Shown: piece by piece, positions 611-46,841 of the stretch
Position numbering within the stretch: the first letter of the stretch is position 1
How the letters are laid out: each line of letters starts with the position of its first letter
From: Syntrophales bacterium
GTDB taxonomy: Bacteria > Desulfobacterota > Syntrophia > Syntrophales > UBA2210
Direction of reading: 5' to 3'
Length of the DNA: 64,000 nucleotides
NCBI GenBank assembly: GCA_023230565.1
Contig: JALNXD010000015.1
Location: forward strand, 7,410-71,409
Position numbers and translations under genes: made by a program
The notes under the pieces: generated by a model
What the model saw: the letters and a program-made list of their open reading frames with translations, nothing else
Told to the model about the DNA's origin: nothing
Databases searched by the model: none

Positions 611-2104
611 TCAGTAATAATCGGCAAGACCTTTTTTATGTATCTCAAAGCGCTGTAAAGCAAAAATCGTGTTCCACACCCCTTTTTTCATATCTTCGCG
701 TGCGCTTGAAACATCCTTACCCTCCGGATCTTCATTGATAAAAGCCTGCCTGAAAGCTTCTATTTCACCCTTTTTGAGTTCTATTTCCGGTCCCAGAGGC
801 ATACGTTCTATATATATTCTTTTTCTTTTGTTCAGCTCTACTTCCTTGAAAACGTATCTGTAAGAAATTGCCTGTTTAATTGCCGTTACATCATATCTGA
901 CAAGAAGCGAAAGCTCCGCACAATCCATATGTTCCATAAGAGAAGAATGAATGTACAGCCGGTCCCTTGACGCCCCAAAAGCCCAGAGGTCCTTCTTACT
1001 CGGCAAAGTATCAAGGACACGTACGCAGGCAGCTAATTTTTCAGTCTCTCCCCTTACGGAAATATTTCTGATCAGCCCTGTCCGCGTGAGATCTTCATAA
1101 GGCTTCTTGATCATTTCAGCTCCCCTTCGTCTGGCTGCTGCTTTTTGATACATATTTTTATATATAAATGAGCAATAATTTACAGGCAGATCTATCTTTT
1201 TTTCGAAAATATGATGCATCACCTGCAACGCAGTGAGCTCGGATTCAAGAACGGTTACTTTTGGACCATGCAGAAACGTATAGTTTCGTTTTTGAAGTGC
1301 ATCGAAATTGTATGGAGTCAGTCGCAACTGGTGCAGATTAAGATAGCCGACACCTGCGTTTTTCAGAGTTCCTGCAAGCTCGCACAGGGTTTTCAAATCT
1401 TCCGGTATTGCGGGAATTTCTACCGTAACTGCATCAAATATTCCCGCAGCCAGAATCACCGGCTTCAGCCGGTATCCGATGGCGCCGATATCAAAGCGCA
1501 CTTCGTCTACTCCTTCTGCATGAAGTGCTGAAAGCCTTTCTTTCGTAGCCAGGGTACCGTTCGTATACATCCATATATATACGCGGTCTCCCATACGTTT
1601 TCTCACCGAACCTACAAAGCGGAGAGTTTTTTCATACGTCAGTAGCGGCTCTCCACCGCTCATGCTCACTCCTTCAAAACCCAGCCGCTCCACATAATCG
1701 GCATAGTCCCGTGAATCCGAAAAGGAAACCGTATTCGTTTGAGGGACATCTTCGGAATTCTGTTCGGCCGGGCAGTAAAAACAGTTCATATTACATATCC
1801 CGTTTACAAAAAGACAGGACCACTTTCCGTTTCCGCAGGCGCGGCAACCCGGAGACAGCCGGCGGACATCAAGCTTGCTGTCTCCATGACTTAAAAGCGC
1901 ACCGCAGGAGATAAGAGTTTTCATCAGTTCCGAACGCAAGACCTCCGCTCTTTCAGTCTCATCTGGTTTGATCCATTTTAATTGATTGTACGTATTCTTA
2001 TATTCACTTCTGTTTTTTTCTATATTACTCTCTCTTTCAGCCGATTCATTTATTTCGGCGGCTGCCTGCACTGGCGCTTTGCCATCTTCAATACTAGTTT
2101 TCAT
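611..2104 (-). CDS. Radical SAM domain protein (activase/PflX-like, function unknown)
   Basis: 497-aa ORF with a CNMNCFYC (CxxxCxxC) cluster motif. A second Cys-rich patch SPGCRACGNGKWSC precedes it, and the SGGEPLL SAM-binding motif follows. It is divergent from the sigma-54 regulator gene. Confidence 0.8.
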   Translation of the reverse strand: MKTSIEDGKAPVQAAAEINESAERESNIEKNRSEYKNTYNQLKWIKPDETERAEVLRSELMKTLISCGALLSHGDSKLDVRRLSPGCRACGNGKWSCLFVNGICNMNCFYCPAEQNSEDVPQTNTVSFSDSRDYADYVERLGFEGVSMSGGEPLLTYEKTLRFVGSVRKRMGDRVYIWMYTNGTLATKERLSALHAEGVDEVRFDIGAIGYRLKPVILAAGIFDAVTVEIPAIPEDLKTLCELAGTLKNAGVGYLNLHQLRLTPYNFDALQKRNYTFLHGPKVTVLESELTALQVMHHIFEKKIDLPVNYCSFIYKNMYQKAAARRRGAEMIKKPYEDLTRTGLIRNISVRGETEKLAACVRVLDTLPSKKDLWAFGASRDRLYIHSSLMEHMDCAELSLLVRYDVTAIKQAISYRYVFKEVELNKRKRIYIERMPLGPEIELKKGEIEAFRQAFINEDPEGKDVSSAREDMKKGVWNTIFALQRFEIHKKGLADYY

Positions 2105-2236: not shown

Positions 2237-3667
2237 TTGAATCAAAAGGCCGTAATGAAGAAATTTCTTGCAGTGACAGAAGAACAGACAGTTTTCCAGC
2301 AAATCCAGACAAGTTTCAGATCGAAGAAAAGGGTCGATCAGGCACCGGATTTACAAAGCGCACTTGAAATGCTCCGGAAAAATCATTACGATTTTATTTT
2401 CATAGATCTTGAGATTTTGCGCCGATCTGCAGTTGACGTAGGGTATAAAGGAGCGCTTCAGTCTTTGTGGCTGGTGTATCCTGATGTGGAAGTAATTGTA
2501 ATGACTAATCAAAACATGATCAGAGAGGCTGTACTGGTTGTTAAGGCGGGAGCCAGCAATTATCTGACATATCCGCTGAACACGGACGAAATAAAGTATG
2601 TGGCTGAAAGTATTTATGAATCGATTATCGTCCAGTCCGCCCTTGATTATATGAGAGACAAATTCTGGGAGGGAGAGTCTCTCGAGATTGTGCAGACAAA
2701 AAGCCCTGCAATGAGAAAAGTCTTCGATAAAGTACGTTCAGTCGCGACGACTAAAAGCACTGTTCTGTTAGAAGGTGAAACAGGTACGGGCAAGGGAGTA
2801 CTGGCAAAACTTATCCACAAACACAGCAGCAGAAAGAAAGGGCAATTTATCAGCATTCATTGCGGTGCGATTCCGGATACTCTTATCGAAAGCGAGCTCT
2901 TCGGACATGAAAGAGGCGCCTTTACAGGTGCCGTGAGAAGGCAGATGGGAAAGTTTGAAATTGCAAAAGGCGGAACTATATTCCTTGATGAAATTGGAAC
3001 CATAACCCCTTCCGCACAGATAAAGCTTCTGCAGGTGCTTCAGGACGGTATTTTTCAGAGGGTAGGAGGAGAGGAAACGATAGAGGCTGACGTAAGAGTA
3101 ATCGCGGCCACCAATATCGACCTGAAGCTGCTTATACAGGAAGGGCGGTTCAGACGAGATCTTTATTACCGTTTGAATGTTTTCCCGATCGAAATTCCTC
3201 CTTTAAGGGAACGAAGCGAAGACATCCCCCTTCTGATAGAAATTTTTCTTAAAAAACTGAATAAGTTTTCGGTAAAAGAAATCCATGATGTACATCCCGA
3301 TGTAGTGACGGCCTTCCGCCGTTACGAATGGCCGGGGAATATCAGGGAGCTCCAGAACCTGATCGAGCGCGCCCACATAATAGAAACCTCATCGGTATTG
3401 ACACCCGAGAGTTTTCCGAGTGAGCTTTTCGATTCACTTATTCCATCACCCTCCTTCGAGGTTGATACTTTAAAAACTCTTGCCGAAACACGCCAGATTG
3501 CCTGGGAAAAAATAGAGAAGAAATATCTGAGAGAGATATTGGAAGAGGAAAAGGGAAGCATTAAAAAATCTGCTGAAAGAGCCGGGATTACAACACGGCA
3601 ATTATCAAAATTGATGAATAAATATAATCTGCAAAAAGAATTATTCAAATCTCCCCGCCATATTTGA
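2237..3667 (+). CDS. Sigma-54-dependent response regulator (NtrC/bEBP family: receiver + AAA+ + Fis-type HTH)
   Basis: Walker [15 protein letters not shown] loop ([15 protein letters not shown]), [10 protein letters not shown], and a C-terminal HTH ([20 protein letters not shown]). The receiver keeps a D in FIFIDLE but has TEE where the usual acidic DD pair sits. The start is TTG 2237 or ATG 2255. Confidence 0.9.
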
Positions 3668-3809
3668 TCATACTGCACTGCCAAATAAAAAAACGGAATT
3701 ATCAGTTCGTCTGCAGGTTAAAACGGAATTTTTTGTTCCGTTCCTGAAAAAATAATATTTACGGATAATTACTCTTTCCTTTCTTCCGACACCATAAAAA
3801 AGGGAAAGT

Positions 3810-3834
3810 AAACAGGAATCAGAAATTCCTGTTT
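3810..3834. promoter_or_regulatory. Perfect inverted repeat AAACAGGAAT-N5-ATTCCTGTTT, candidate enhancer (UAS) site for the adjacent bEBP
   Basis: Read directly from the sequence. The centre lies ~63 bp upstream of the -24 GG, about -88 relative to the predicted start site. That is within the usual bEBP UAS distance range. Confidence 0.5.
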
Positions 3835-3883
3835 TATCAGAGTGCTTAAATTGTATATCCCTGGTTTCAATGACTTATACGCA

Positions 3884-3898
3884 TGGCACATACATTGC
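3884..3898 (+). promoter_or_regulatory. Sigma-54 (RpoN) -24/-12 promoter
   Basis: TGGCAC-ATACA-TTGC is an exact match to the TGGCAC-N5-TTGC consensus. It lies 57 bp upstream of ATG 3955 and immediately downstream of a sigma-54 activator gene. Confidence 0.8.
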
Positions 3899-3954
3899 GT
3901 TTGACCTGCATCATATCGAATACGATCAGGCGTATATGTGCGCAAGGAGGCACG

Positions 3955-4254
3955 ATGAAAAAAAACAAATTAGCAATATACTTGATCCTTTCTATTTTTT
4001 TTCTGGCCATGAGTAATCAAAGTATCACGGCGGCGGAATCGATCACCGGCGAAGTAAATGATGATTTCCAGATAATTTCGGAAACCGGTGAGGCATATAA
4101 TGTCTATTCCAGTGAGGCAGGAAACGAAGTAGTCGAGCATGTCGGTGAAAAAATCACCGTCACAGGAGAAGTAGAGATTATCGAAGGCGAAAAATGGATA
4201 AATATAATTTCCTACACACTTCTGGAAGATAGAAGCGATAAAGATACACAGTAA
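3955..4254 (+). CDS. Small exported protein (99 aa, signal peptide), function unknown
   Basis: Internal ATG at 3955 is preceded by AAGGAGG. MKKNKLAIYLILSIFFLAMSNQSITAAES is a Sec signal. The ORF-track start 3883 lies inside the sigma-54 promoter and is unlikely. Confidence 0.6.
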   Translation: MKKNKLAIYLILSIFFLAMSNQSITAAESITGEVNDDFQIISETGEAYNVYSSEAGNEVVEHVGEKITVTGEVEIIEGEKWINIISYTLLEDRSDKDTQ

Positions 4255-4305
4255 TAATTCTGAAAATGATCCTGTATGTGCACGCAGAAAACGGGGAGGA
4301 GAAAA

Positions 4306-5616
4306 ATGGAGCCTGATTACATCATCGAAGAAACGGAGCCTCCCGGTAGTCGTTACCGGGGACATCGATTCGAACAAAAGCTAAGCCCGGAAAATGTATT
4401 TCCGTCAAAAACAGCGAAAGAGATCCTGAAACCGGCGCGAGGTCCTGGGTTTTTCATAAGTCCGGAAATACGGAAATTCAAACGACATTATTATAAAGGA
4501 GTCACAGATGCCGAATGGAATGACTGGCACTGGCAGATACGTCACAGAATTGCATCGGCCCCGGACCTTGAAAGAATCATCGAGATATCGGCAGATGAGA
4601 GTGAAGCTCTTTCTCATCAGACCGGCAGATTTCCTTTCCAGATAACCCCTTATTACGCAAGCTTACTTGATCCCGTTGATCCGCATCATCCGTTACGGCG
4701 CACAGTTGTTCCGGTCACTGCCGAAGAATTTCATTCCGCCGGAGAAGAAGATGATCCATTGGGAGAAGAAGCGGAAAGTCCCGTTCCCGGGATCGTACAC
4801 CGCTATCCTGATCGTGTGCTTTTTCTGGTATCTGATCTCTGTTCGACCTACTGCCGTTACTGCACAAGATCAAGACTCGTAGGAAGGACGCACTGCCAGG
4901 GGAGTATTCAGGAACGGATTGCCGGCGGAATCAAATATATAGCAGCAAACCGCCAAATAAGGGATGTGCTCGTTTCCGGAGGAGATCCACTTATGTTTTC
5001 CGACGAGAGGCTGGAATGGATTTTGGTGAATCTCCGCCGAATACCGCATGTAGAAGTGATCAGAATAGGGACGAAAACCCCGGCGGTGCTGCCTCAAAGA
5101 ATTACCGCAAATCTGGTCCGTATGCTCAGGCGATACAATCCCTTATGGATGAGTCTGCACTTTACACATCCTGAAGAGCTGACGGATGAAACAAATCAGG
5201 CATGTGAGCGACTTGCGGACGCAGGTATTCCTCTTCAGAGCCAGACTGTTCTTCTGTCAGGAATAAATGATTCGGCTGCCGTCATGATGGAGCTGTTTCA
5301 CAAACTGGTAAAAATCCGTGTAAGACCGTATTATCTCTATCAGTGCGATCCCATTTCAGGATCGTCTCATTTCCGCACTCCCGTGGCAACGGGAATTTCG
5401 ATCATTAAAGACTTAAGAGGGTATACGAGCGGATTCGCTGTTCCTCTCTATGTGATCGATACCCCCGGCGGAGGCGGCAAGGTACCGGTCATGCCGGAGT
5501 ATGTAATGGGACATGAAGGAAACACAATTCTGCTTAAAAATTATGAAGGAAAGATTTATCGATACGAGGATAATCCCGGACTTTCGAAAGCCATCTGCGA
5601 AAAGCCGCAGGAGTGA
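4306..5616 (+). CDS. kamA: Lysine 2,3-aminomutase (KamA-family radical SAM, beta-lysine forming)
   Basis: CSTYCRYC radical SAM motif, PYYLYQCD motif and GGGGK near the C-terminus. The length (~436 aa) fits KamA rather than the shorter EpmB. ATG 4306 has a GGAGGA RBS; the ORF-track start 4276 is an alternative. Confidence 0.85.
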   Translation: MEPDYIIEETEPPGSRYRGHRFEQKLSPENVFPSKTAKEILKPARGPGFFISPEIRKFKRHYYKGVTDAEWNDWHWQIRHRIASAPDLERIIEISADESEALSHQTGRFPFQITPYYASLLDPVDPHHPLRRTVVPVTAEEFHSAGEEDDPLGEEAESPVPGIVHRYPDRVLFLVSDLCSTYCRYCTRSRLVGRTHCQGSIQERIAGGIKYIAANRQIRDVLVSGGDPLMFSDERLEWILVNLRRIPHVEVIRIGTKTPAVLPQRITANLVRMLRRYNPLWMSLHFTHPEELTDETNQACERLADAGIPLQSQTVLLSGINDSAAVMMELFHKLVKIRVRPYYLYQCDPISGSSHFRTPVATGISIIKDLRGYTSGFAVPLYVIDTPGGGGKVPVMPEYVMGHEGNTILLKNYEGKIYRYEDNPGLSKAICEKPQE

Positions 5617-5618
5617 AA

Positions 5619-6620
5619 ATGAAAATCGGAATGACATATGATCTGAAAGATGATTACCTTAAGTCCGGGTACAACAAGGAAACCGCGGCGGAATTCGATA
5701 GTGAAGATACAATCTTCGCAATAGAAAACGCCCTTCGGGAGCAGGGACACCGGACCGATCGCATAGGCAATATAAAAGCCCTTACACGAAGACTCGCGGT
5801 GGGAGACAAGTGGGACCTGGTGTTCAATATTGCCGAAGGGGCAGCCGGCTTCGGACGGGAGGCCCAGGTGCCCGCTCTTTTAGATGCATACGGAATTCCC
5901 TACACCTTTTCCGACCCTCTCGTTTTGTCAATTACTCTTCATAAAGCAATGACAAAACATATCGTACGCGACCTCGGAATCAATACGCCTGATTTCACAG
6001 TTATTGAATCTGAAGCCGATGTAAAAAAAATCGGCCTGCCTTTTCCGCTTTTCGTGAAACCCGTTGCAGAAGGAACAAGCAAAGGAATTTCGGCTACTTC
6101 TATAGTTTCAGATATTCATGCACTAAAAAAAGAATGCACAAGAATTCTCAATTTATTTCATCAGCCGGTGCTTGTTGAAACGTACTTGCCGGGACGGGAA
6201 TTTACTATCGGCATTATCGGAACAGGTAAAAAGGCCGAATGTCTCGGAGTGCTGGAAGTTCTTCTCAATGGAAATGCTGAAGAGGGTGCCTATTCTTATC
6301 AAAACAAGGAGCACTTCAAGGAGCGTGTGATATACCGGCTCGCGAATGATTCAGGTGCACGGGAGGCAGCCCGCCTTGCCATTGACGTATGGCGAGGGTT
6401 GGGATGCCGCGATGGAGGACGTGTGGATGTGCGCAATGACGGCAATGGTGCACCGTCTTTCATAGAAGTAAACCCCCTGGCAGGCCTGCATCCTGAAAAT
6501 TCCGATCTTTGTATCCTCGCTTCCCATGCGGGAATTACTTACGGAACACTCATCGAACGGCTTGTGCGCGCAGCCCTGGACCGGATACCTTATAATTATA
6601 CTTGTAAAGAAGTCGGATGA
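5619..6620 (+). CDS. ATP-grasp ligase, D-alanine--D-alanine ligase-like (copy 1)
   Basis: Ddl-like layout: N-domain, then FPLFVKPVAEGTSKGI, LVETYLPGREFTIG and the C-terminal RVDVR...FIEVNPLAGL metal/ATP motifs. The start is GTG 5613 or ATG 5619 and overlaps or abuts the kamA stop. Confidence 0.8.
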   Translation: MKIGMTYDLKDDYLKSGYNKETAAEFDSEDTIFAIENALREQGHRTDRIGNIKALTRRLAVGDKWDLVFNIAEGAAGFGREAQVPALLDAYGIPYTFSDPLVLSITLHKAMTKHIVRDLGINTPDFTVIESEADVKKIGLPFPLFVKPVAEGTSKGISATSIVSDIHALKKECTRILNLFHQPVLVETYLPGREFTIGIIGTGKKAECLGVLEVLLNGNAEEGAYSYQNKEHFKERVIYRLANDSGAREAARLAIDVWRGLGCRDGGRVDVRNDGNGAPSFIEVNPLAGLHPENSDLCILASHAGITYGTLIERLVRAALDRIPYNYTCKEVG

Positions 6621-6624
6621 ATAT

Positions 6625-7641
6625 ATGCACATGCCACGGATAGCACTTGCGCATAACATACCTTCTGAATCGAATGATTCCCTTGATGTGCTCGATCAGG
6701 TGTGCGCCATTGAAGAAGCTCTTGACGATCTGGGGTTCGCCTCCCTGCGCATTCCCTTTACCAGGAATTTAAATTCTTTTTTGACTCAGATCAGGAAATC
6801 TCATGCGGATATTATTTTCAATCTCGTTGAAACTGTTGATGAAGAAGCAGCCCTGGCTTCACATCCAGCAGCGGTATTCGAACTGTTAGACCTGCCCTTC
6901 ACCGGTTCTTCAGCCTCTGCTCTGGCTTTGACCACAGATAAAGTCACGGCAAAGAGACTTATGCGGGCATGTGGAATAAGGACGCCCAATTATTTGATTT
7001 ATGAAGGAGCAGCATCCTTTAATGCCTCTCACCTCACGTTTCCGGTAATTTTGAAACCCCGCTTCGAGGATGCAAGCATCGGAATCGATCAGGACTCTAT
7101 ATACGAAGATGAACGGCACCTTCGAAAAAATATACAAAACCACTACGCCCGATACGGAAGTCTTCTTGTAGAAGAATATATTGACGGCCGGGAATTCAAT
7201 GTTTCGCTATTCGGCTACCCCGTTCCTCAGGTACTTCCCCTTACTGAAATCGATTTTTCTCATTTTCCGCATACATTATATCCCATTGTAGGCTATAAAG
7301 CGAAATGGGACACTTCATCCTTTGAATATACTCATACGCCGCGCCTGCTGTCGCGCGAAACAGAACCTTCGCTTGCCGGCGAAATAAACAAACTGGCGTT
7401 TGACTGTTTCCGTCTCTTCGGCCTGCGGGATTACGCAAGAGTGGACATACGGGCAACTGCGCATAATAAACCTTACGTACTGGAAGTAAACGCGAACCCC
7501 TGCCTCAGCCCCGATGCGGGCTTTGCAGTCGCAACGGCCAATGCGGGATTTTGTTATGCCGATATGGTGGATAAAATTGTTCGTTTCGCTCTCGCGCGCT
7601 CGAAAGACAAGGCTCACCATGGAGAAACAGGTTGTGCATGA
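6625..7641 (+). CDS. ATP-grasp ligase, D-alanine--D-alanine ligase-like (copy 2)
   Basis: FPVILKPRFEDASIGI, LVEEYIDGREFNVS and ARVDIR...VLEVNANPCLS motifs. ATG 6625 lies 5 nt after the previous stop; the ORF-track start 6526 would overlap copy 1 by ~95 nt. Confidence 0.8.
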   Translation: MHMPRIALAHNIPSESNDSLDVLDQVCAIEEALDDLGFASLRIPFTRNLNSFLTQIRKSHADIIFNLVETVDEEAALASHPAAVFELLDLPFTGSSASALALTTDKVTAKRLMRACGIRTPNYLIYEGAASFNASHLTFPVILKPRFEDASIGIDQDSIYEDERHLRKNIQNHYARYGSLLVEEYIDGREFNVSLFGYPVPQVLPLTEIDFSHFPHTLYPIVGYKAKWDTSSFEYTHTPRLLSRETEPSLAGEINKLAFDCFRLFGLRDYARVDIRATAHNKPYVLEVNANPCLSPDAGFAVATANAGFCYADMVDKIVRFALARSKDKAHHGETGCA

Positions 7642-8182
7642 CGCCGGACTCTTTAAGATCACACCTCTTTTACACTCCGATAAGGAAAAGATCCGCCGCA
7701 TTATCGAAAATACAGGCGTTTTCAACATATATGAAATCAATGTGGCCCTGGAGCTGATCGATTCTGCCCTTGCGCGAAATGAAGGGGATGATTACCGAAT
7801 TTACTGTCATCGAATCGAAAATGATGTAATTACCGGCTATATCTGCTTCGGTCCCATACCCATGACTCAGCAGTGCTTCGACATCTACTGGATTGCTGTT
7901 GATACAAAAATGAAAAGACATCATATAGGGACAAAACTTTTAGAATTCGCCGAATCTGAAATAGAAAGTGAAGGAGGAAGAAAAATTTTTATTGATACAT
8001 CTTCCACGCCGCCGTATGAGGCAGCCCGAAGCCTTTATGCAAAATCTGGATATATCCCTGTTGCCACATTCGAAGATTTTTACCGCCCCGGTGACGACAA
8101 GATCGTTTTCATGAAGGATCTCAAAAAAAACAGCCGACTTTTTTGCGTTTCAGAATTCCTAAGCACCTGCACAAATTATTGA
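7619..8182 (+). CDS. GNAT-family N-acetyltransferase
   Basis: IYWIAVDTKMKRHHIGTKLLEFAE is the GNAT motif A (acetyl-CoA pyrophosphate loop). The protein is 187 aa from ATG 7619 and overlaps the preceding gene by 23 nt. Confidence 0.7.
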   Translation: MEKQVVHDAGLFKITPLLHSDKEKIRRIIENTGVFNIYEINVALELIDSALARNEGDDYRIYCHRIENDVITGYICFGPIPMTQQCFDIYWIAVDTKMKRHHIGTKLLEFAESEIESEGGRKIFIDTSSTPPYEAARSLYAKSGYIPVATFEDFYRPGDDKIVFMKDLKKNSRLFCVSEFLSTCTNY

Positions 8183-8234: not shown

Positions 8235-8912
8235 TTACTCCGAGGCTATGCGCATAAGAGCGTCGTAATCGCGAATAATTATTATTTTCCCTTCTACATC
8301 AAGAATGTTCTGAGCGGCAAATTTTTTGAAGACCCTGGAAAGACTCTCGGGAGTGGTCCCCATTATTTTCGATAATTCCCGATGAGAGAAACTCAGTTCG
8401 ACTACATAGCCGTCTTTCTGCAATATAGCGGAACGGGCCAGGAACGTTGCAAGCCTTTGAGGAAGCTCTTTTAATGAAATAGATTCAACGAGAGTGAGCA
8501 CTTCCTTAAGTCTTCTCGAAAATAATGACAGAAGATTAAAAAGAATCGACGGTTCCTCTCTGACTACCTTCTCGAGTATGCCCGCCGGGAAATAAATGAT
8601 TTTGGTATCATCGAGGGCCATTGCGCTCGCAGGAGATACTTCGTCCGTAAGCGCCGTCAGACAAAAAGGTTCACCCGGTCCAAAAATAAAAATAGTCTGT
8701 TCCTTGCCTTCGGCTGAACTTTTAAAGATTTTCACTTTTCCCCACACAATTACATAAAGAGACTTCGCCTCCTGCGAATCGAGAATAATCATTTTTCCCG
8801 CAGGAAAGTTCTTTTCTTTTGCGCTGACGGCAAGAATTTTTTTCTGCCCGGGAGGCAAACCCCGAAAGAGCGGCATATGTTCCAAAGCCCGAAGAATATC
8901 CATTTGATCCAT
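8235..8912 (-). CDS. Crp/Fnr-family transcriptional regulator
   Basis: N-terminal cNMP-binding-type beta-barrel (LFRGL...FPAGKMII...LYVIVWGKVKI) and a C-terminal HTH (SHRELSKIMGTTPESLSRVFKKF). No N-terminal Cys cluster of true FNR is evident. The start is moved to ATG 8912 because the ORF-track start would bury the TTGAT-N4-ATCAA box in coding sequence. Confidence 0.8.
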   Translation of the reverse strand: MDQMDILRALEHMPLFRGLPPGQKKILAVSAKEKNFPAGKMIILDSQEAKSLYVIVWGKVKIFKSSAEGKEQTIFIFGPGEPFCLTALTDEVSPASAMALDDTKIIYFPAGILEKVVREEPSILFNLLSLFSRRLKEVLTLVESISLKELPQRLATFLARSAILQKDGYVVELSFSHRELSKIMGTTPESLSRVFKKFAAQNILDVEGKIIIIRDYDALMRIASE

Positions 8913-8931
8913 TTCTGATTTGTTGATTTTG

Positions 8932-8945
8932 TTGATGTAGATCAA
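8932..8945. promoter_or_regulatory. FNR/CRP-type operator TTGAT-GTAG-ATCAA with downstream -10 (TACAAT 8967..8972)
   Basis: Perfect palindromic half-sites read directly. With the -10 at 8967..8972, the box centre sits about 41 bp upstream of the predicted start site, which is class II activator geometry. It faces the Fe-S gene at 9040. Confidence 0.6.
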
Positions 8946-9039
8946 TGCATTTTCTTATATCATGCATACAATGCTATTTAATTAAATACATACTATCTCA
9001 TGAGCCTCATGAATTGAAATAAATTATGAAGAGGAACAA

Positions 9040-10050
9040 ATGAAAGATAATCAAGGAAGCTTTTCGAGAAGGTCTTTTCTGAAAGTGACAGGCGGTCTTG
9101 CCCTTATGGCCGGGATACACATTCCGAAACCGGTTCAGGCAAGAAGCACGGGAATGTTGGCAACACTTATCGATCTGAGCCTTTGCGACGGGTGCCCTGA
9201 CCTCGATATTCCAGCGTGCGTCAAAGCCTGCAGAGCAAAAAACATGGCCGGCATACCCGATCCGGTCGATCCCATGCCGGCACTGCTTCCGCGGGGAGTA
9301 AGAGAAGATTGGTCAAAAAAGAAAGATGTCACTGACAGGCTCACACCTTACAATTGGATTTTTTTGCAAAAGGCGGAAGTCGAAAAGGACGGCGATACGA
9401 AGACTTTATTCATACCGAGAAGATGCATGCATTGTGATAATCCTGCCTGTGCGACGATCTGCCCTTTTTCCGCCAATCATAAGCACACAACCGGTGCGGT
9501 TATCATAGATAAAGATCTATGTTTCGGAGGCGCAAAATGCAGAACCGTGTGTCCCTGGAACATTCCCCAAAGACAATCCGGCGTGGGAATCTATCTGGAC
9601 ATCCTGCCCGAACTTGCAGGCAACGGTGTCATGTTTAAATGCGACCTCTGTCAGGACAGGATTCTCAACGGCGAAACGCCTGCCTGTATAGAGGCCTGCC
9701 CCAGAGGGGCGATGAGAATCGGCAGGCGCAATGAAATGTATGAAGAAGCCGAGGCAAGAGCGAAAGAAATAAATGGTTTTGTGTATGGAAAAAACGAAAA
9801 CGGAGGGACATCGACATTCTATATATCGCCGGTGTCATTCGAAACAATCGATGCCGCCATACATGCCAACCCGGGAAAACCTCATTTGAAACCGGTGAAA
9901 AGGGCACTGGCAAAAACGGATGGAACAGGCAAATCGGTTCTTCTTTCACCCGCTATAGGACTTGTAGCGGGTATTGCCGCTGCTGCAGGCACCCTGATGA
10001 AGAAGAGAATCGTGCGTGTAGAGGAGGAAAGAAAAAATGGGCGATCATAA
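9040..10050 (+). CDS. Tat-exported 4Fe-4S ferredoxin-type electron-transfer subunit (FdnH/HybA/DmsB-like) with C-terminal membrane anchor
   Basis: Twin-arginine signal SRRSFLKVTGGLALMAG, several CxxCxxCxxxCP-type clusters (CMHCDNPACATICP, CDLCQDR...CIEACP), and a hydrophobic C-terminal helix. Confidence 0.8.
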   Translation: MKDNQGSFSRRSFLKVTGGLALMAGIHIPKPVQARSTGMLATLIDLSLCDGCPDLDIPACVKACRAKNMAGIPDPVDPMPALLPRGVREDWSKKKDVTDRLTPYNWIFLQKAEVEKDGDTKTLFIPRRCMHCDNPACATICPFSANHKHTTGAVIIDKDLCFGGAKCRTVCPWNIPQRQSGVGIYLDILPELAGNGVMFKCDLCQDRILNGETPACIEACPRGAMRIGRRNEMYEEAEARAKEINGFVYGKNENGGTSTFYISPVSFETIDAAIHANPGKPHLKPVKRALAKTDGTGKSVLLSPAIGLVAGIAAAAGTLMKKRIVRVEEERKNGRS

Positions 10051-10813
10051 CCCGCAAGAAAAAGAAACGGTAGTGCGGCATGGCATCATTGAACTGGCGG
10101 AACACTGGATAATCGCTTTCTCCGGCATTTTGCTTGTCCTCACAGGCATTTTTCAGCTTCCCGTTGCAAAGAGGTATTTTATCACGGACATCCCCGGAAT
10201 GGCCTGGTCGGGAGACTTCATCTTTACACTGGAACTTCATTATGCCGCATCAATTCTTTTCATTGCAGCGGCTGTTTTCCATATCATCTATCATGGCATC
10301 CTGGGCGACAGGGAATTGATCCCCCGAAAGGGAGATGTCAGGGAATCGATTGCTGTAATAAAAAGTTTTTTTGGCAATTCAAAGGAACCGCCCTTTCACA
10401 AATATCTGCCGGAACAGCGTCTGGCCTATGCAGGCATGGCGGTTATCATTGCAGGCCTGATCATCTCCGGACTTGTTAAAGTCTATAAAAACATCTACTC
10501 CCCCGGCCTTTCGCCAGCAGTATTATGGTGGGCAACAACGGCACATAATATTTTCTTTGTTCTTTTTGTGCTTGCCATTATCGCTCACATCGGCGCGCTG
10601 ATTCTGAAACCTAACAGGCCAATGATACGTGGCATTTTTACCGGAAGCGTAAGCCGTGAATACGCACGAAGCCGCCATCCGCTGTGGATAAGGGAAACCG
10701 AACAAACAAGTGAACCTTCCGGCTCGGAAGAAGCCCGCCCCGAAAGCAGAGATCCTGTAACTGCGAATGAAAGCAGTGTACAGGACGGCAATGAAGAGAA
10801 TGGCGAAAAATAA
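10037..10813 (+). CDS. Membrane b-type cytochrome subunit (FdnI / Ni-Fe hydrogenase cytochrome b-like)
   Basis: Four predicted TM helices with conserved His (HWIIAFSG..., HYAASILFIAAAVFHIIYH, AHIGALI). It overlaps the Fe-S gene by 14 nt and has an acidic low-complexity tail. Confidence 0.6.
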   Translation: MGDHNPQEKETVVRHGIIELAEHWIIAFSGILLVLTGIFQLPVAKRYFITDIPGMAWSGDFIFTLELHYAASILFIAAAVFHIIYHGILGDRELIPRKGDVRESIAVIKSFFGNSKEPPFHKYLPEQRLAYAGMAVIIAGLIISGLVKVYKNIYSPGLSPAVLWWATTAHNIFFVLFVLAIIAHIGALILKPNRPMIRGIFTGSVSREYARSRHPLWIRETEQTSEPSGSEEARPESRDPVTANESSVQDGNEENGEK

Positions 10814-27884: not shown

Positions 27885-30800
27885 CTAAGGGTTGTTGATA
27901 AAATCGTAAATCGCTATTCCAAGTTTTCTACCTAAATAACCGCCCGCAGTTGCCCCAGCAACACTACCAGCTGCAGTTCCTGCAACTGGCGTGACAAAAC
28001 TACCCCCAATCGCACCAACAATTCCACCACCTACACAACCCAAAAGCCCAATGCTTACTTCAGCAAGTTCTCGATAAGGATTCGGCGAAGCGTATACTTG
28101 ATAAGCATCGTATCCTACACCTGCTATCAGAAGAACCGGACCAGCAATTCTAAATGCACCCCCTACACTGTTTACAATATTATTGCTGATATTCGCCGAC
28201 CCCAGAGAGTTCGGATGGGGGCCAAGGCCCGGACGGATGGCCTCAATTGGCCTGCGAACTAAGGGTGGTGTTTGTTCTCGAATTGCCTGTTTGAGTGCTG
28301 TCCGTCCTAATGAGTCATTTGGATCAAGCAAAGCTACTCCAGTTTCATATCGAGCTCTTGCAAGGCCGGCATCGCTGATTTGCTGTCCAATTGAAATTGC
28401 AATATCGGCAACTGCATCAAGAGCTATATTTCCAGTTAATGATTCTCTATACTCATCATTCCAATATAAAGATTGATATTCATTCACCGCCGTCAACCCC
28501 TCCGGATCAAGATACCGCAAGGGATTGTTCCTCACGTAGGCATAGAGGTTCAGTCCGTCCGCATAGCCTGCGGGGTCGCGCTGCATGAAGCGGCCCAGTT
28601 TTGCCGAGTACATGCGGTTCCGGTAGTACCAGAGGCCCGATTCGCCATCCCAGCGCCTGCCCGTGTAGCCGTAGGGATTGCCGACTGTACTTTCAATGAT
28701 CGTACCTCCCTGGCCATCAAGGATCGTCATCAGGCCGAAGGCGGTGTATTCGTAGGTCTCGACGATGTTCCCGTTCTCATCAGTCAGGGCCGTGATGCTG
28801 TACTGCCGGTCTTTAAGGTAGTAGTAACGGTTCCCGGCATTATCTTCCATCATGATCGGGTCATCGATATAAATGCCATAAACGAAGGACTGCCGGAACT
28901 GGCCGTCTTCGTATTCCTCGATCACCTGGCCGCCGTTGTAAATGTAGGCGGTCGTGTGACCCCCATATGATTTTGTAACCCGCCTGTTCAGTGCATCGTA
29001 CGTGTATGTCGCAATGGTCGATCCATACAAGGTGTTTACCTTGATCAGTCTGTTGGCCCAGTCATACTCGTATCGTTTCGACGCATCCCGTGTCATGTTA
29101 CCCCTGTCGTCATAGGTTGGAGTTGCGGCCGTTATGCTCGTATATTCATTTACTGCGTTTGCCGTGCGCGATTCCTGATTTCCGTTCTGATTCGTGTATG
29201 TCCAGTTCCCCTCAGGATCATGCTGCCACTGAATCGTATCCATCGTACCTTGCTGTTCAATGATCAGACGGTTTAAGTCGTCATATTCATATTGTTTTTC
29301 GTATTGTTCTATCCCAATGAAGGGTATTGTGGAAATAGCACGTTCAATAGCTTCTGAAAGTATGTTGCCCATGCCGTCATAGGTTGTTTCCATACTGTAA
29401 AGGGTGGTGGTGTCAATGTCCGCATAGATCCGATTCCCTTCCATGCCCCGGTCATTATAGGAAAGACTCTTTTCTATCCCGTTGCCCAATGTCATGGCGG
29501 CAACGCGGCCGTTCAGGTTGTAGGTAAAGCCGGCGATACTGTTTTGGGACTGATCCTTGATTGAATCGGGAAGGTTAAGGCCGTTGTATGTGCGGTGAAC
29601 CACAAATCCTCCCGTATCGGGGTATACGAGGTCTTCCGGATTCCCGTTCGCGTCATAAAATTTTTCAACCCGTTTCCCGTCCTGCACCTCGGCCGTCACT
29701 TCATTGAATGCATTGTACTCGAACAATACGGAATGCGTTGCATTGCCTTCATTGTAATCATCGGCAACAATCATTCTGGAAAGCGAATCGTATTCAAAAT
29801 GCCGGGCTTCCTGATTATTCGCATATACATCCGTAAGTCGATTCATATCGTCATACCATTTAGTGATCGTGCTCTCGTCGGGACGTGTTTCCTGAACTAT
29901 ATTACCTGCCTCATCATAGTCGTACGTTGTCACGTCGCCTGCCGCATCTTCCACTCCCACGGGACGGTTCAGGGCATCGTAATAGGTGCGCGTTTCGCTA
30001 CCTCCAGGATCGATCACTGATTTCAGATTACCGTTTGCATCATACGTGTACACTGTCGTTTGCTCTAATGCGTCTATCGTCTTGATCCGGCGTTTGGCCA
30101 AATCATAAAAATGTTTTGTCACTCCGCCCTCCTGGTCCGTCTCCATAACCAGATTGCCAACCCAATCGTATGCGTAACTGCTGCAATTACCGGCAGGATC
30201 GCATTCGAAAATCTTTCGGCCTAGTGCATCGTATTCAAACAGCCACTCTCGTCCTTCGGCATCTTTTCGCTTTTTCAGCAGATTGCGTGAATCATATTCA
30301 TAGGACTTCTCGGCCATCTTTATCCCATCGCTGCCGTACATTTCGACTTTTGTTTTGTTTCCGTTCTTGTCATATTGATTTACTGTGTAATTTCCCTTGG
30401 GTTCGATGAATTCAACGAGTCTGCCCAGCGGATCATACCGGTATTGATAGGTCCGAGCGCCGGTGACGCCATAGTCGAGAGTCTTGGCAACAGGACGGTT
30501 CAGGTTATCATATTCATAGTGCGTTACAACAGGAATGTCGCTGCTCGCATCCTTCAAGGTTCGTATTTCATCGGTCAGGTTGCCGTTGGCATCGTAGAGA
30601 TAGCTGGTGGTGGCGCCTTCCGCATCCGTAATGCTTGTCTTGCGGTTGGCCGCATCATAGGTGTAACTCGTCCTGTTGCCCCTTTTATCTTCTTTCGCTT
30701 CGAGGTTCCCATTTCCATCGTAACTATAGAGGATGGAGTTCTGGTAAGGATCCATCTCCTCGACGAGCCGGTTCATCCCGTCATAGAAGTATCGGAATAC

Positions 30801-34688: not shown

Positions 34689-34772
34689 CGCTTACCTCTT
34701 CGTGATGTTATTGGTTTTGATCATTTTTTAAAGATAACTTCTTATATCTCACTGGTTTGTAGATGATGTTAT

Positions 34773-39101: not shown

Positions 39102-39384
39102 GTGGGAACATCCTCCCTTGAAAAGTTTGAAACATTCCAATTTCACTTCAGACCTATAGAATTTGCATACTGCCCCTTAATCATTTACTTCATTTCATAT
39201 GGCAGATTCATACCAGGCATGTCATTGTATTGACGAAGCTTTCGAAATAAATGATGACATCAGATTCGATGCAGATAACCCGGAATCGGATAAGGGAGTC
39301 ATCTCCCTCAAAAATTAAAATTATAGGCCTGACGTAGCAGGCTCAAATCCTTTCTATTGAAGCGGATTTTTTGCACTGTGCAAT

Positions 39385-45130: not shown

Positions 45131-45156
45131 GGCGGGATATACTCCCGCCTTTTTTT
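45131..45156 (+). terminator. Rho-independent terminator
   Basis: GGCGGGA-TATAC-TCCCGCC followed by TTTTTTT. It sits between the convergent csp and gspE ends and touches the gspE stop codon. Confidence 0.65.
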
Positions 45157-46840: not shown

Positions 46841-46841
46841 G

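What the first reader, a model, noticed from the sequence alone, without database searches (positions are those of the whole stretch)
3810..8182. Sigma-54-controlled operon combining lysine 2,3-aminomutase, two Ddl-like ATP-grasp ligases and a GNAT: candidate pathway for an acetylated beta-lysine peptide
Seen in sequence: an exact TGGCAC-N5-TTGC promoter with an upstream perfect inverted repeat lies next to an NtrC-type activator. It is followed by tightly packed or overlapping genes for a 99-aa exported protein, KamA, two ATP-grasp ligases and a GNAT. Established knowledge: KamA plus a GNAT (AblA/AblB) makes the osmolyte N-epsilon-acetyl-beta-lysine. The dipeptide osmolyte NAGGN is made by Ngg, which combines a GNAT with a Ddl-like ATP-grasp domain. 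Inference: adding two ATP-grasp ligases to an AblAB-like pair suggests ligation of beta-lysine to one or two further amino acids plus acetylation. The product would be a small beta-lysine-containing peptide, acting as a compatible solute or signal. I do not know of a characterised example with this gene set. A divergent radical SAM gene (611..2104) may or may not belong to it.
Basis: partly seen in the sequence, partly recalled or inferred. Interest (0 to 1): 0.6.

Follow-up and report, generated by a model that had tools for sequence, protein, structure and literature searches.

The report
Conserved orphan beta-lysine peptide-ligase operon
This is a real sigma-54-controlled operon whose four core genes (a lysine 2,3-aminomutase, two D-Ala-D-Ala-ligase-like enzymes and an acetyltransferase) stay together in bacteria of at least six phyla, so it most likely makes a still unidentified small acetylated beta-lysine peptide.

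Summary
TGGCAC-N5-TTGC (3884-3898) is the only such site in 64 kb. The inverted repeat at 3810-3834 is one of two GGAAY-N5-RTTCC palindromes, the only two in the window, 90 bp apart.

The promoter, the palindromes and their spacing recur beside orthologous activators in Syntrophales and Desulfovibrio loci. The core KamA, ligase 1, ligase 2, GNAT is syntenic in about 40 loci from at least six phyla.

- **KamA:** keeps every lysine 2,3-aminomutase catalytic and lysine-binding residue.
- **Ligases:** both keep all Ddl ATP, Mg and catalytic residues, but differ from Ddl and from each other at specificity positions.
- **Fusions:** ligase 1-ligase 2 fusions are common, and one KamA-ligase 1 fusion was seen.
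- **GNAT:** not AblB-like. Its closest solved relative is the uncharacterised PDB 2R7H.
- **Accessory genes:** a deacetylase (HDAC fusion or M20) is a recurrent extra gene.
- **Lineage-specific:** the 99-aa protein is an exported OB-fold protein found only in Desulfobacterota. The divergent radical SAM gene is not part of the system.

I found no paper or curated family that assigns a product. Best reading: Lys to beta-Lys, two ATP-dependent amide ligations, then N-acetylation. The product's identity and any osmolyte role remain inference.

The parts
2237..3667 (+). Dedicated sigma-54 enhancer-binding activator: degenerate receiver, AAA+ domain with GAFTGA, and a Fis-type HTH.
   Evidence: PF00158 E 1.5e-68, PF25601 and PF02954. 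No NCBIfam equivalog cut-off is reached. Orthologues of 50-85% identity sit directly upstream of the cassette in 15 Desulfobacterota loci. In the receiver, D54 is kept, K104 is Tyr in all 11 orthologues, and D11/D12 are not kept.
3722..3742 (.). Distal upstream activator site: palindrome AACGGAA-N7-TTCCGTT, centred about 165 bp upstream of the -12 element.
   Evidence: A palindrome at the same distance (164-178 bp) occurs in most related loci, including Desulfovibrio.
3810..3834 (.). Proximal upstream activator site: perfect inverted repeat AAACAGGAAT-N5-ATTCCTGTTT, centred about 75 bp upstream of the -12 element.
   Evidence: A palindrome at the same distance (75-87 bp) occurs in about half of the related loci, including Desulfovibrio.
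3884..3898 (+). Sigma-54 promoter (-24/-12), TGGCAC-N5-TTGC.
   Evidence: Unique in 64 kb, with 0.06 expected. The consensus xGGCAY-N5-TTGCT is conserved upstream of the operon in all 12 bEBP-linked loci examined.
3955..4254 (+). Accessory first gene: exported 99-aa OB-fold protein with an acidic C-terminal tail. It is lineage-specific and not part of the core.
   Evidence: It has a signal peptide and a conserved domain of about 70 aa in 9 Syntrophales loci. The AF2 model has core pLDDT above 90 and beta1-3/alpha/beta4-5 topology. All top Foldseek hits are OB folds, including periplasmic YgiW 1nnx, but their E-values are weak, 0.02-0.2. There are no Pfam or NCBIfam hits. Exported and non-exported relatives occupy the same position in other Desulfobacterota.
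4306..5616 (+). Lysine 2,3-aminomutase (KamA/AblA-type radical SAM/PLP enzyme), predicted to convert L-lysine to beta-lysine.
   Evidence: TIGR03820 AblA scores 499.8 bits, below the 525.4 cut-off. The TIGR00238 KamA family scores 342.7, above 199.2. PDB 2A5H matches at E 1.1e-137 with D293, D330, K337 and CxxxCxxC aligned. These residues are invariant in 38/38 cassette KamAs.
5613..6620 (+). Ddl-type ATP-grasp ligase 1 (AG1). An alternative ATG start lies at 5619.
   Evidence: PF07478 E 2.6e-24. The best NCBIfam hit, Ddl subfamily PRK01372, scores 147 bits against a cut-off of 243. The AF2 model has pLDDT 88.8, and its top 50 PDB matches are all Ddl or Ddl-type D-Ala:D-Lac ligase, TM 0.64-0.82. 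All ATP, Mg and catalytic residues are kept. The specificity positions are Y216E, L282D and S150T.
6625..7641 (+). Ddl-type ATP-grasp ligase 2 (AG2), a paralogue about 28% identical to AG1.
   Evidence: PF07478 E 6.4e-23. PRK01372 scores 128.6 bits against a cut-off of 243. Catalytic residues are kept. The specificity positions are Y216W, L282G, S150A and G276C. It always follows AG1. AG1-AG2 fusions occur in both orders.
7619..8182 (+). GNAT acetyltransferase of the 2R7H family. An alternative GTG start lies at 7634.
   Evidence: PF00583 E 1.1e-10. It has no AblB (TIGR03827) hit, and its weak RimI hit (35 bits) is below the 86 cut-off. PDB 2R7H, 'putative D-alanine N-acetyltransferase', matches at E 8.8e-28. 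It is the last gene of the cassette in most loci but is absent in three Rhizomicrobium/alphaproteobacterial loci.

Best explanation
The region is a single sigma-54 transcription unit, 3884 to 8182. A dedicated enhancer-binding activator (2237-3667) switches it on by binding two GGAAY-N5-RTTCC palindromes about 75 and 165 bp upstream of the -12 element.

The conserved four-enzyme core is a cytoplasmic small-molecule pathway:
1. KamA isomerises free L-lysine to beta-lysine.
2. The two paralogous Ddl-type ATP-grasp ligases each form one amide bond through an acyl-phosphate intermediate.
3. The GNAT acetylates a remaining amine, most likely the epsilon-amino group of the beta-lysine moiety.

The most economical chemistry is that each of the three enzymes caps one of beta-lysine's three functional groups (beta-NH2, COOH, epsilon-NH2). 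That would give a small, charge-reduced N-acetyl-beta-lysine di- or tripeptide. The product would stay in the cell as a stress protectant (compatible solute). In Desulfobacterota it would be co-induced with an exported OB-fold protein.

**What is shown:** the promoter and palindrome architecture and its conservation, the gene content, the synteny, the fusions, and the retention of catalytic residues.

**What is inferred:** co-transcription, the lysine to beta-lysine step (from residues), the order and partners of the ligations, the acetylation site, and the physiological role.
For: **Regulation**
- The promoter is unique in the window, and the palindrome motif is found only here.
- The promoter recurs in all 12 bEBP-linked loci examined, and the palindromes with their spacing in most of them, across Syntrophales and Desulfovibrionales.
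- No strong internal terminator or promoter was found, and the genes overlap or abut.

**Pathway unit**
- The order KamA-AG1-AG2-GNAT holds in about 40 loci from Desulfobacterota, Fibrobacterota, Bacteroidota, Spirochaetota, Pseudomonadota and Planctomycetota. Only these four genes are shared across the 32 loci clustered.
- AG1-AG2 fusions are numerous and occur in both orders. One KamA-AG1 fusion exists.

**Chemistry**
- The KamA lysine-binding D293 and D330, the PLP-binding K337 and the cluster cysteines are invariant.
- Both ligases keep K97, K144, E180, E187, K215, R255, D257, E270 and N272 of DdlB.
- They diverge at specificity sites. AG1 has acidic E216 and D282, suited to a cationic nucleophile. 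AG2 has W216 and G282.
- The AG1 model has a full-length Ddl fold.

**Acetylation of a lysine-type side-chain amine**
- A deacetylase gene recurs inside the cassette: a GNAT-like/HDAC-domain protein of about 580 aa in six loci from five lineages, 56% identical between Desulfovibrio and Cytophagales, and an M20 peptidase in L036.
- From general knowledge, HDAC-type enzymes deacetylate N-epsilon-acetyl-lysine-like or acetylpolyamine amines.

**Intracellular product**
- No exporter is conserved with the core, and none of the three lineage-specific neighbours scanned is a transporter.
- There is no defence-system match.

**Precedents**
- AblA/AblB makes N-epsilon-acetyl-beta-lysine (PMC3543383, PMC2821294).
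- The negamycin cluster combines beta-lysine formation with an ATP-grasp enzyme (10.1101/2025.05.27.656397).
Against: - No metabolite, transcript or enzyme assay exists for any member.
- The partner amino acids are unknown. Ddl homology could mean D-amino acids.
- The GNAT is missing in the Rhizomicrobium-type loci, and deacetylases are present in some. The acetyl group may therefore be a transient protecting group rather than part of the final product.
- The source environments named in the record titles (peat, digester sludge, a sulfidic spring, soils) are not obviously saline. Nothing links the operon to osmotic stress.
- Transporter genes do occur sporadically near or inside the cassette: DMT_6 in L012, MFS in L036 and an amino-acid permease in L041. 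Export is therefore not excluded.
- The active-site reading (acidic pocket means cationic nucleophile) rests on a sequence alignment, not on a complex structure.
- The literature index lacks most subscription journals. Iyer et al. 2009 (PMC3268129) could not be read.
Confidence: 0.4

Rival explanations
1. The enzymology is the same, but the product is exported and bioactive. It would be a beta-lysine peptide antibiotic, signal or metallophore, comparable to negamycin or to the beta-lysine chain of streptothricin. The acetyl and deacetyl steps would serve self-protection or prodrug handling.
For: - The negamycin cluster combines beta-lysine formation with an ATP-grasp enzyme.
- GNAT plus deacetylase pairs fit a protect/deprotect logic.
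- Transporters appear sporadically next to or inside the cassette: DMT_6, MFS and an amino-acid permease.
- The cassette has spread horizontally. The HDAC fusion is 56% identical between Desulfovibrio and Cytophagales.
Against: - No exporter, resistance gene or further tailoring enzyme is conserved with the core in the loci compared.
- The cassette is very widespread. The representative library holds 777 clusters at E<=1e-30, and more than 2,000 GNAT homologues were found. It sits in ordinary chromosomal contexts, which is unlike a typical specialised antibiotic cluster.
Confidence: 0.15
2. The ligases polymerise beta-lysine, with or without another amino acid, into an oligo- or poly-cationic chain. 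One ligase initiates and the other elongates. The GNAT and the deacetylase set the charge. The product would be a nitrogen store or a polycation that interacts with the envelope or with nucleic acids.
For: - Two paralogous ligases act together and are often fused.
- AG1 has an acidic nucleophile pocket.
- Control is by sigma-54.
- From general knowledge, ATP-grasp enzymes can polymerise (RimK, cyanophycin synthetase).
- Acidic-tailed exported proteins are co-encoded.
Against: - Ddl-type enzymes are known as single-turnover dipeptide ligases.
- There is no primer-binding or Mur-ligase-like domain of the kind found in CphA.
- No evidence points to a polymer.
Confidence: 0.1
3. The cassette remodels the cell envelope. 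The Ddl-like enzymes make alternative D-Ala-D-X or beta-lysine-containing dipeptides for peptidoglycan or another envelope polymer, and the GNAT acts on D-alanine, as the deposited name of PDB 2R7H suggests.
For: - The ligases show full-length Ddl homology, and AG2 has a weak hit to an archaeal pseudomurein ATP-grasp family.
- 2R7H is named 'putative D-alanine N-acetyltransferase'.
- An exported OB-fold protein is co-transcribed.
- Sigma-54 is often linked to the cell exterior (PMC3162934, title and abstract only).
Against: - The Ddl specificity residues Y216, S150 and L282 are all replaced, and the curated Ddl cut-offs are missed by about 100 bits.
- No mur, van or dlt genes are adjacent in any locus.
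- The PDB name is an unverified annotation that probably derives from the neighbouring 'Ddl' genes.
Confidence: 0.08
4. The cassette modifies or uses a carrier protein. The small OB-fold proteins with acidic C-terminal tails would be substrates or amino-group carriers for the ATP-grasp ligases, by analogy with LysW/LysX or RimK/S6, and would become decorated with beta-lysine.
For: - Small OB-type proteins sit between the promoter and KamA in many Desulfobacterota, in exported and non-exported forms.
- Their acidic C-terminal tails resemble the targets of ATP-grasp tail ligases.
- L029 carries an exported acidic-tail protein inside the cassette.
Against: - The core cassette lacks any such protein in most phyla.
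- Most of these small proteins carry Sec signal peptides, whereas the enzymes are cytoplasmic.
- The ligases are Ddl-type, not RimK/LysX-type.
Confidence: 0.06
5. It is a graspetide (microviridin-like) RiPP cluster, in which a precursor peptide is cross-linked by two ATP-grasp ligases and N-acetylated by a GNAT.
For: Microviridin clusters combine ATP-grasp ligases, a GNAT and a precursor peptide (the reviews listed, for example PMC7823629, hold all of these terms; the count of two ligases is from my own knowledge). In this window a small ORF precedes the enzymes.
Against: - Both ligases match Ddl families and structures only. At E<=0.001 the PDB sequence search found Ddl, Van-type ligases and one L-amino-acid ligase, with no graspetide ligase. 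Among Pfam families at E<=0.001 only Dala_Dala_lig_C reaches its cut-off in both ligases, plus ATP-grasp_3 in AG2, and no MvdC/MvdD-type family appears.
- The small ORF encodes a Sec-exported folded OB domain, not a leader-core peptide.
- No small ORF is conserved outside Desulfobacterota, and Desulfovibrio loci have no room for one.
- KamA keeps the residues for binding free lysine.
Confidence: 0.03
6. It is a lysine catabolism (fermentation) operon in which KamA catalyses the first step.
For: KamA catalyses the first step of lysine fermentation. PMC2821294 groups ablA clusters under lysine degradation.
Against: - None of the downstream fermentation enzymes is present or adjacent (no beta-lysine 5,6-aminomutase, dehydrogenase or cleavage enzyme).
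- ATP-consuming ligases are biosynthetic.
Confidence: 0.02

Closest known systems
AblA/AblB pathway for N-epsilon-acetyl-beta-lysine (methanogens; predicted in Pelobacter and Syntrophus)
   Same: - A KamA/AblA-type lysine 2,3-aminomutase is followed in the same operon by a GNAT.
- It is the nearest curated family: TIGR03820 scores 499.8 bits.
- The product is a cytoplasmic acetylated beta-lysine derivative (PMC3543383, PMC2821294).
   Different: - Two Ddl-type ligases lie between the aminomutase and the GNAT.
- The GNAT is a single-domain protein of about 165-187 aa from the 2R7H family. It has no AblB (TIGR03827) match.
- KamA misses the AblA equivalog cut-off.
- Control is by sigma-54 and a bEBP.
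- The salt induction known for ablAB has not been tested here.
Ngg/AsnO pathway for the dipeptide osmolyte N-acetylglutaminylglutamine amide
   Same: The logic is shared: a GNAT acetylation plus an ATP-grasp peptide ligation yields a small N-acetylated peptide solute, and the cluster has no exporter.
   Different: - Ngg is one GNAT-ATP-grasp fusion protein. Here the genes are separate, and the fusions observed are ligase-ligase and KamA-ligase.
- No amidotransferase is conserved with the core.
- The building block here is beta-lysine.
D-alanine--D-alanine ligase (Ddl) and the Van ligases
   Same: - The full-length fold is shared (TM 0.64-0.82).
- All ATP, Mg and transition-state residues are kept.
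- Dipeptide-forming acyl-phosphate chemistry is expected.
   Different: - Identity is only about 25%.
- Scores are about 100 bits below the curated cut-offs.
- The Pfam N-terminal domain (PF01820) is not detected.
- Specificity residues 150, 216 and 282 are replaced differently in the two paralogues.
- The genomic context contains no cell-wall genes.
PDB 2R7H, 'putative D-alanine N-acetyltransferase of GNAT family' (orphan structural-genomics entry)
   Same: - It matches the window GNAT at E 8.8e-28 over the whole domain.
- Its 99%-identical protein sits in the same layout: bEBP, KamA, ligase, ligase, GNAT.
   Different: No function has been shown. The deposited name is a guess and does not mention beta-lysine.
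Negamycin biosynthetic cluster (Kitasatospora)
   Same: It is reported to co-localise beta-lysine formation with an ATP-grasp amide-forming enzyme.
   Different: - It is an actinomycete antibiotic cluster with hydroxylase, N-methyltransferase and hydrazine-forming haem enzymes.
Microviridin/graspetide clusters (two ATP-grasp ligases plus a GNAT plus a precursor peptide)
   Same: The gene-count pattern is shared: two ATP-grasp ligases followed by a GNAT, with a small ORF upstream.
   Different: - The ATP-grasp clade is different (Ddl-type).
- There is no leader-core precursor.
- An aminomutase that acts on free lysine is present.

Membership tests
Lysine 2,3-aminomutase (KamA/AblA, radical SAM + PLP) | CxxxCxxC radical SAM cluster motif | tested here: met
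   CSTYCRYC is present. All three Cys are invariant in 39/39 cassette homologues.
Lysine 2,3-aminomutase (KamA/AblA, radical SAM + PLP) | PLP-binding Lys337, and Asp293/Asp330 that bind the epsilon-ammonium of lysine (numbering of PDB 2A5H) | tested here: met
   All three align in the phmmer alignment to 2A5H and are invariant in 38/38 homologues. The roles of these residues are from my knowledge of the 2A5H literature.
Lysine 2,3-aminomutase (KamA/AblA, radical SAM + PLP) | Curated family score thresholds | tested here: inconclusive
   The KamA family TIGR00238 scores 342.7, above 199.2, so it is met. The AblA equivalog TIGR03820 scores 499.8, below 525.4, so it is narrowly missed. The Glu-, Arg- and EpmB-type models score far below their cut-offs.
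Lysine 2,3-aminomutase (KamA/AblA, radical SAM + PLP) | Conversion of L-lysine to beta-lysine | not testable with these tools
   This needs an enzyme assay.
D-alanine--D-alanine ligase proper (Ddl) | ATP-grasp Ddl fold with the ATP, Mg and catalytic residues | tested here: met
   K97, K144, E180, E187, K215, R255, D257, E270 and N272 are invariant in 29 AG1 and 30 AG2 sequences. The top 50 PDB matches of the AG1 model are all Ddl or Ddl-type D-Ala:D-Lac ligase.
D-alanine--D-alanine ligase proper (Ddl) | Curated score cut-off and the D-Ala specificity residues (S150, Y216, S281/L282) | tested here: not met
   The scores are 147.1 and 128.6 bits against a cut-off of 243. Y216 becomes E in AG1 and W in AG2. 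L282 becomes D and G. S150 becomes T and A.
AblAB N-epsilon-acetyl-beta-lysine system | AblB-type beta-lysine acetyltransferase (TIGR03827) | tested here: not met
   The GNAT has no hit at E<=0.001. Its only NCBIfam hits are three weak ones, to RimI, AAC(6')-Ii and PRK03624, all below cut-off.
AblAB N-epsilon-acetyl-beta-lysine system | Two-gene aminomutase-acetyltransferase unit | tested here: not met
   Two ligase genes always lie between them.
Ngg-type NAGGN synthesis | GNAT fused to an ATP-grasp domain, with a partner amidotransferase | tested here: not met
   The genes are separate. No GNAT-ligase fusion occurs among the fused representatives scanned or in the Pfam columns of 120 homologues. 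No amidotransferase is conserved. No direct sequence comparison with Ngg was made.
Graspetide (microviridin-type) RiPP cluster | Graspetide-type ATP-grasp ligases and a leader-core precursor peptide | tested here: not met
   Among Pfam families at E<=0.001 only Ddl-C passes its cut-off in both ligases, plus ATP-grasp_3 in AG2, and no MvdC/MvdD-type family appears. The PDB sequence matches are Ddl, Van-type ligases and one L-amino-acid ligase. The upstream ORF is a Sec-exported OB domain and is absent outside Desulfobacterota.
Sigma-54 promoter with enhancer-binding protein | -24 GG / -12 GC elements with the correct spacing | tested here: met
   TGGCAC-N5-TTGC at 3884-3898 is unique in the window. 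It is conserved in 12 loci.
Sigma-54 promoter with enhancer-binding protein | Adjacent activator with a sigma-54 interaction AAA+ domain (GAFTGA) and upstream palindromic sites | tested here: met
   PF00158 E 1.5e-68, and GAFTGA is in the translation. Two palindromes sit at conserved distances.
Sigma-54 promoter with enhancer-binding protein | RpoN- and activator-dependent transcription | not testable with these tools
   This needs RNA-seq, 5'-RACE, EMSA and mutants.
NtrC-type two-component response regulator | Receiver domain with the phospho-acceptor Asp, the acidic Mg pocket and the conserved Lys | tested here: not met
   The D54 equivalent is kept, but K104 is Tyr in 11/11 orthologues and D11/D12 are not conserved. 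No histidine kinase is adjacent in the window. The Pfam receiver hit is weak or absent in orthologues.
Periplasmic OB-fold (BOF/YgiW-like) proteins | Signal peptide plus a five-strand OB barrel | tested here: inconclusive
   The signal peptide is evident. The single-sequence AF2 model has OB topology. All Foldseek matches are OB folds, including YgiW, but their E-values are only 0.02-0.2. There is no Pfam hit.

The most novel reading that the evidence does not exclude
The cassette makes a metabolite class that has not been described: a beta-lysine-centred pseudo-tripeptide in which ligase 1, ligase 2 and the GNAT each cap one of beta-lysine's three functional groups.

It would be a widespread stress metabolite of anaerobic and soil bacteria in at least six phyla. 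In Desulfobacterota it would be controlled by a dedicated sigma-54 activator with a phosphorylation-independent pseudo-receiver, and co-induced with an exported acidic OB-fold protein.

A bolder variant is also not excluded: the OB-fold proteins could themselves be carriers or targets of the ligases.
Probability: 0.3. Interest if true: 0.7.

Novelty: new variant of a known kind. Interest (0 to 1): 0.58.

Why it matters
- **Known uses of beta-lysine:** it is known as an osmolyte precursor, an EF-P modifier, a fermentation intermediate and an antibiotic building block. A fifth, widespread use would add a metabolite family to the biochemistry of syntrophs, sulfate reducers, planctomycetes and Bacteroidota. 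These groups dominate digesters, peat and sediments.
- **Annotation:** two large sets of proteins are currently annotated as 'D-alanine--D-alanine ligase' or 'RimI-like acetylase' in public databases. This work would give them a function. It would also explain the orphan crystal structure 2R7H.
- **Regulation:** it would supply a clean model of a dedicated sigma-54 regulon with a defined operator.
- **Testability:** the same operon occurs in cultured Desulfovibrio species.

Tried and rejected
**Rejected on evidence**
- Divergent radical SAM gene 611-2104 as a member. It is conserved next to the cassette only in the closest relative L001. It has only generic radical SAM hits.
- Crp/Fnr gene 8235-8945 as the regulator. 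It is convergent and is not conserved in other loci.
- Graspetide RiPP reading.
- Anti-phage defence. PADLOC has no hit for any core protein.
- Mobile or plasmid origin. There is no tblastn match in 72,556 plasmids.
- RNA elements. There are no Rfam matches in the window.
- Glutamate or arginine 2,3-aminomutase. Those models score well below cut-off, and the lysine-binding Asp residues are kept.

**Searched without result**
- Literature. Ten full-text searches found no paper describing this gene combination.
- The D. vulgaris sigma-54 regulome paper does not mention lysine, aminomutase or these ligases.
- Iyer et al. 2009 on amidoligases could not be opened.
- Kuehl et al. 2014 list a sigma-54 promoter 'Dde_3398 (at codon 13 within the ORF)'. 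In locus L033 the promoter also lies inside the called KamA ORF. I could not verify that Dde_3398 is the KamA homologue, because no supplement is held.

**Search for further conserved genes**
- A conserved extra gene such as a transporter or amidotransferase was sought by all-against-all clustering of neighbouring ORFs. Only the four core genes are shared across phyla.

Full report
**1.

Promoter and palindromes:
- The sequence at 3884-3898 reads TGGCAC-ATACA-TTGC. It is the only match to TGGCAC-N5-TTGC on either strand of the 64-kb window, where shuffles give 0.06.
- The inverted repeat at 3810-3834 is perfect: 10-nt arms and a 5-nt spacer.
Both share GGAAY-N5-RTTCC, which occurs exactly twice in the window, 90 bp apart.

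Gene content matches the description:

| Coordinates | Gene |
|---|---|
| 2237-3667 | Sigma-54 activator (PF00158 E 1.5e-68, GAFTGA, HTH_8) |
| 3955-4254 | 99-aa protein with a Sec-type signal peptide |
| 4306-5616 | KamA homologue |
| 5613/5619-6620 | Ddl-type ATP-grasp ligase AG1 |
| 6625-7641 | Ddl-type ATP-grasp ligase AG2 |
| 7619/7634-8182 | GNAT |

The genes abut or overlap. Independent gene calls on public contigs carrying the identical ligase give the same set. The simple scans find no convincing internal promoter or terminator on the coding strand. The source is a Syntrophales MAG.

**2. Regulation is supported by phylogenetic footprinting**

- In nine related Syntrophales loci the same layout recurs: the activator, then one to three GGAAY-N5-RTTCC palindromes in most of them, then xGGCAY-N5-TTGCT, then the operon.
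- The same layout occurs in Desulfovibrio mangrovi and in the Desulfovibrio-type contigs that carry the 2R7H protein. There the activator is only 50-52% identical.
- The palindrome centres lie at nearly fixed distances from the -12 element. These are about 75 and 165 bp in the window and most Syntrophales, 75 and 164 bp in D. mangrovi, and 87 and 178 bp in L033.
- Activator orthologues precede the cassette in 15 Desulfobacterota loci overall.
- The activator is therefore a dedicated regulator of this operon.
- Its N-terminal domain is a degenerate receiver. The phospho-acceptor Asp is kept, but the conserved Lys is Tyr in all 11 orthologues and the acidic pair is lost. No kinase is adjacent in the window. 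'NtrC-type' describes the architecture, not necessarily the signalling.

**3. The four enzymes form a conserved unit**

- A scan of species-representative genomes with AG1 returned 31 loci. Look-ups of GNAT homologues added more.
- The order KamA-AG1-AG2-GNAT holds in Syntrophales, Smithella, Desulfomonilia, Desulfovibrionales, Fibrobacterota, Bacteroidota, Leptospirales, Alphaproteobacteria and other Pseudomonadota, and Planctomycetota. An Acidobacteriota locus carries a decayed copy.
- All-against-all clustering of neighbouring ORFs shows that only these four genes are shared across phyla. The activator and the small protein are confined to Desulfobacterota. The divergent radical SAM gene is adjacent only in the window and its nearest relative.
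- In the 50%-identity representative library, 777 clusters match AG1 at E<=1e-30.
- About 40 of the best 150 representatives are proteins of roughly 500-790 aa with two matched Ddl-like stretches. The scanned examples are AG1-AG2 fusions, and both orders occur.
- Single examples also exist: a KamA-AG1 fusion (P0367) and a CxxCxxCC-AG1 fusion (P0376).
- These fusions argue that the aminomutase and both ligases act in one pathway.

**4. What each enzyme is**

KamA:
- It matches the Clostridium subterminale lysine 2,3-aminomutase structure at E 1.1e-137.
- The cluster cysteines, the PLP lysine and the two aspartates that bind the lysine side chain are aligned. All are invariant in 38 cassette homologues.
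- It passes the KamA family threshold. It narrowly misses the AblA equivalog threshold, and it is far from the glutamate, arginine and EpmB models.

AG1 and AG2:
- Both keep every ATP-, Mg- and transition-state residue of E. coli DdlB.
- They miss the Ddl thresholds by about 100 bits and lack a detectable Ddl N-terminal Pfam domain.
- They replace the specificity residues in family-specific ways. AG1 has E at 216 and D at 282. AG2 has W and G.
- The AG1 model (pLDDT 88.8) superposes on Ddl structures over its whole length.
- I read both as active amide ligases with different, non-D-Ala/D-Ala substrates. That AG1's acidic pocket receives a cationic nucleophile such as beta-lysine is inference.

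GNAT:
- It is not AblB-like.
- Its closest solved relative is PDB 2R7H, an uncharacterised structural-genomics entry. The near-identical protein of that entry sits in the same operon.

**5. Accessory genes give hints**

- A protein of about 580 aa, with a GNAT-like N-terminus and an HDAC-type deacetylase domain, is inserted at different positions of the cassette. It occurs in Cytophagales, two Desulfovibrio-group genomes, a Planctomycetota MAG and another lineage. It is 56% identical between Desulfovibrio and Cytophagales.
- One locus has an M20 amidohydrolase instead.
- HDAC-type enzymes act on acetylated lysine-like or polyamine amines (general knowledge). This fits acetylation of the epsilon-amine of the beta-lysine moiety. 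It also means the acetyl group may be removable.
- Three Rhizomicrobium/alphaproteobacterial loci lack the GNAT.
- Transporters appear only sporadically.
- The 99-aa protein is a conserved exported OB-fold protein with an acidic tail. Exported and non-exported relatives occupy the same position in other Desulfobacterota.

**6. Mechanism and rivals**

The best-supported reading has these steps:
1. The activator binds the two palindromes and opens the sigma-54 promoter.
2. KamA makes beta-lysine.
3. The two ligases each add one amide bond.
4. The GNAT acetylates the remaining amine.

The product would be a small acetylated beta-lysine peptide kept in the cytoplasm. I put the confidence in this full reading at 0.4.

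A protective (compatible solute) role is suggested only by two points: the AblAB and NAGGN precedents, and the absence of a conserved exporter.

| Rival | Confidence | Note |
|---|---|---|
| Exported bioactive peptide | 0.15 | Same chemistry, different fate |
| Beta-lysine oligomer | 0.10 | Same chemistry, different fate |
| Envelope or peptidoglycan role | 0.08 | |
| Modification of the OB-fold proteins | 0.06 | |
| Microviridin-like RiPP | 0.03 | Tested and largely excluded |
| Lysine fermentation | 0.02 | Tested and largely excluded |

**7. Novelty**

- No curated family, defence catalogue or paper in the searchable library assigns this cassette a product (the ten searches listed under Tried and rejected).
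- Public names for its proteins are generic or misleading.
- All enzyme families are known, and the logic resembles AblAB and Ngg. I therefore class it as a new variant of a known kind, not as categorically new.
- **Limits:** the literature index omits most subscription journals, and nothing here is experimental.

Noticed in passing
L025:8247-9989; L032:8629-10386; L035:5250-7004; L037:5211-7004; L041:5265-7004: A protein of about 580 aa, with a GNAT-like N-terminus fused to an HDAC-type deacetylase domain, is a recurrent fifth gene of the cassette. It sits at varying positions and is 56% identical between Desulfovibrio mangrovi and a Cytophagales MAG. L036 has an M20 peptidase at the equivalent place.
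   Followed up: partly
P0361, P0389, P0406 (and many others of roughly 500-790 aa); P0367; P0376; P0457: Fusion proteins occur in the representative library. There are many double Ddl-like AG1-AG2 proteins in both orders, one KamA-AG1 fusion, one CxxCxxCC-AG1 fusion, and one 980-aa protein with leucine-rich repeats plus a Ddl-like domain that looks eukaryotic.
   Followed up: partly
L035:1568-1906; L039:2751-3407; L042:2723-3238; L029:8376-8975: Small proteins related to, or patterned like, the window's exported OB-fold protein lie between the sigma-54 promoter and KamA in other Desulfobacterota. Some have no signal peptide. A Pseudomonadota MAG has an exported protein with an acidic tail between KamA and ligase 1. 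Their role is unknown.
   Followed up: partly
L020, L022, L023: Rhizomicrobium/alphaproteobacterial copies of the cassette have KamA and both ligases but no adjacent GNAT.
   Followed up: partly
window 611-2104 (-): A 497-aa radical SAM protein lies divergent from the activator. It has only generic radical SAM hits (MoaA, viperin-like, E about 1e-8 to 1e-12) and a long uncharacterised C-terminal half. It is conserved next to the cassette only in L001.
   Followed up: partly
window 8235-10813: A Crp/Fnr-family regulator (-) is followed by a 4Fe-4S dicluster protein with a possible Tat-like N-terminus and a cytochrome b561-type membrane protein (+). This looks like a small membrane redox module unrelated to the finding.
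   Followed up: no
window 27885-39146 (-): There is a 2267-aa RHS-repeat protein with an N-terminal transglutaminase core and DUF6531. It is followed by a 1457-aa LamG/CHB_HEX-domain protein. This may be a polymorphic toxin or surface-protein locus.
   Followed up: no
window 45155-49079 (-) and 52713-57707: The window also carries a type II secretion ATPase (GspE-like) and secretin (GspD-like), then a peptidase C10 family protein and a subtilase with a PA domain.
   Followed up: no
L033:4465-4515: In the contig that carries the 2R7H protein, the sigma-54 promoter lies inside the called KamA ORF, so that start codon is probably mis-called. Kuehl et al. 2014 (PMC4045070) report a sigma-54 promoter 'Dde_3398 (at codon 13 within the ORF)' in D. 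alaskensis G20. I could not check whether this is the same gene.
   Followed up: partly
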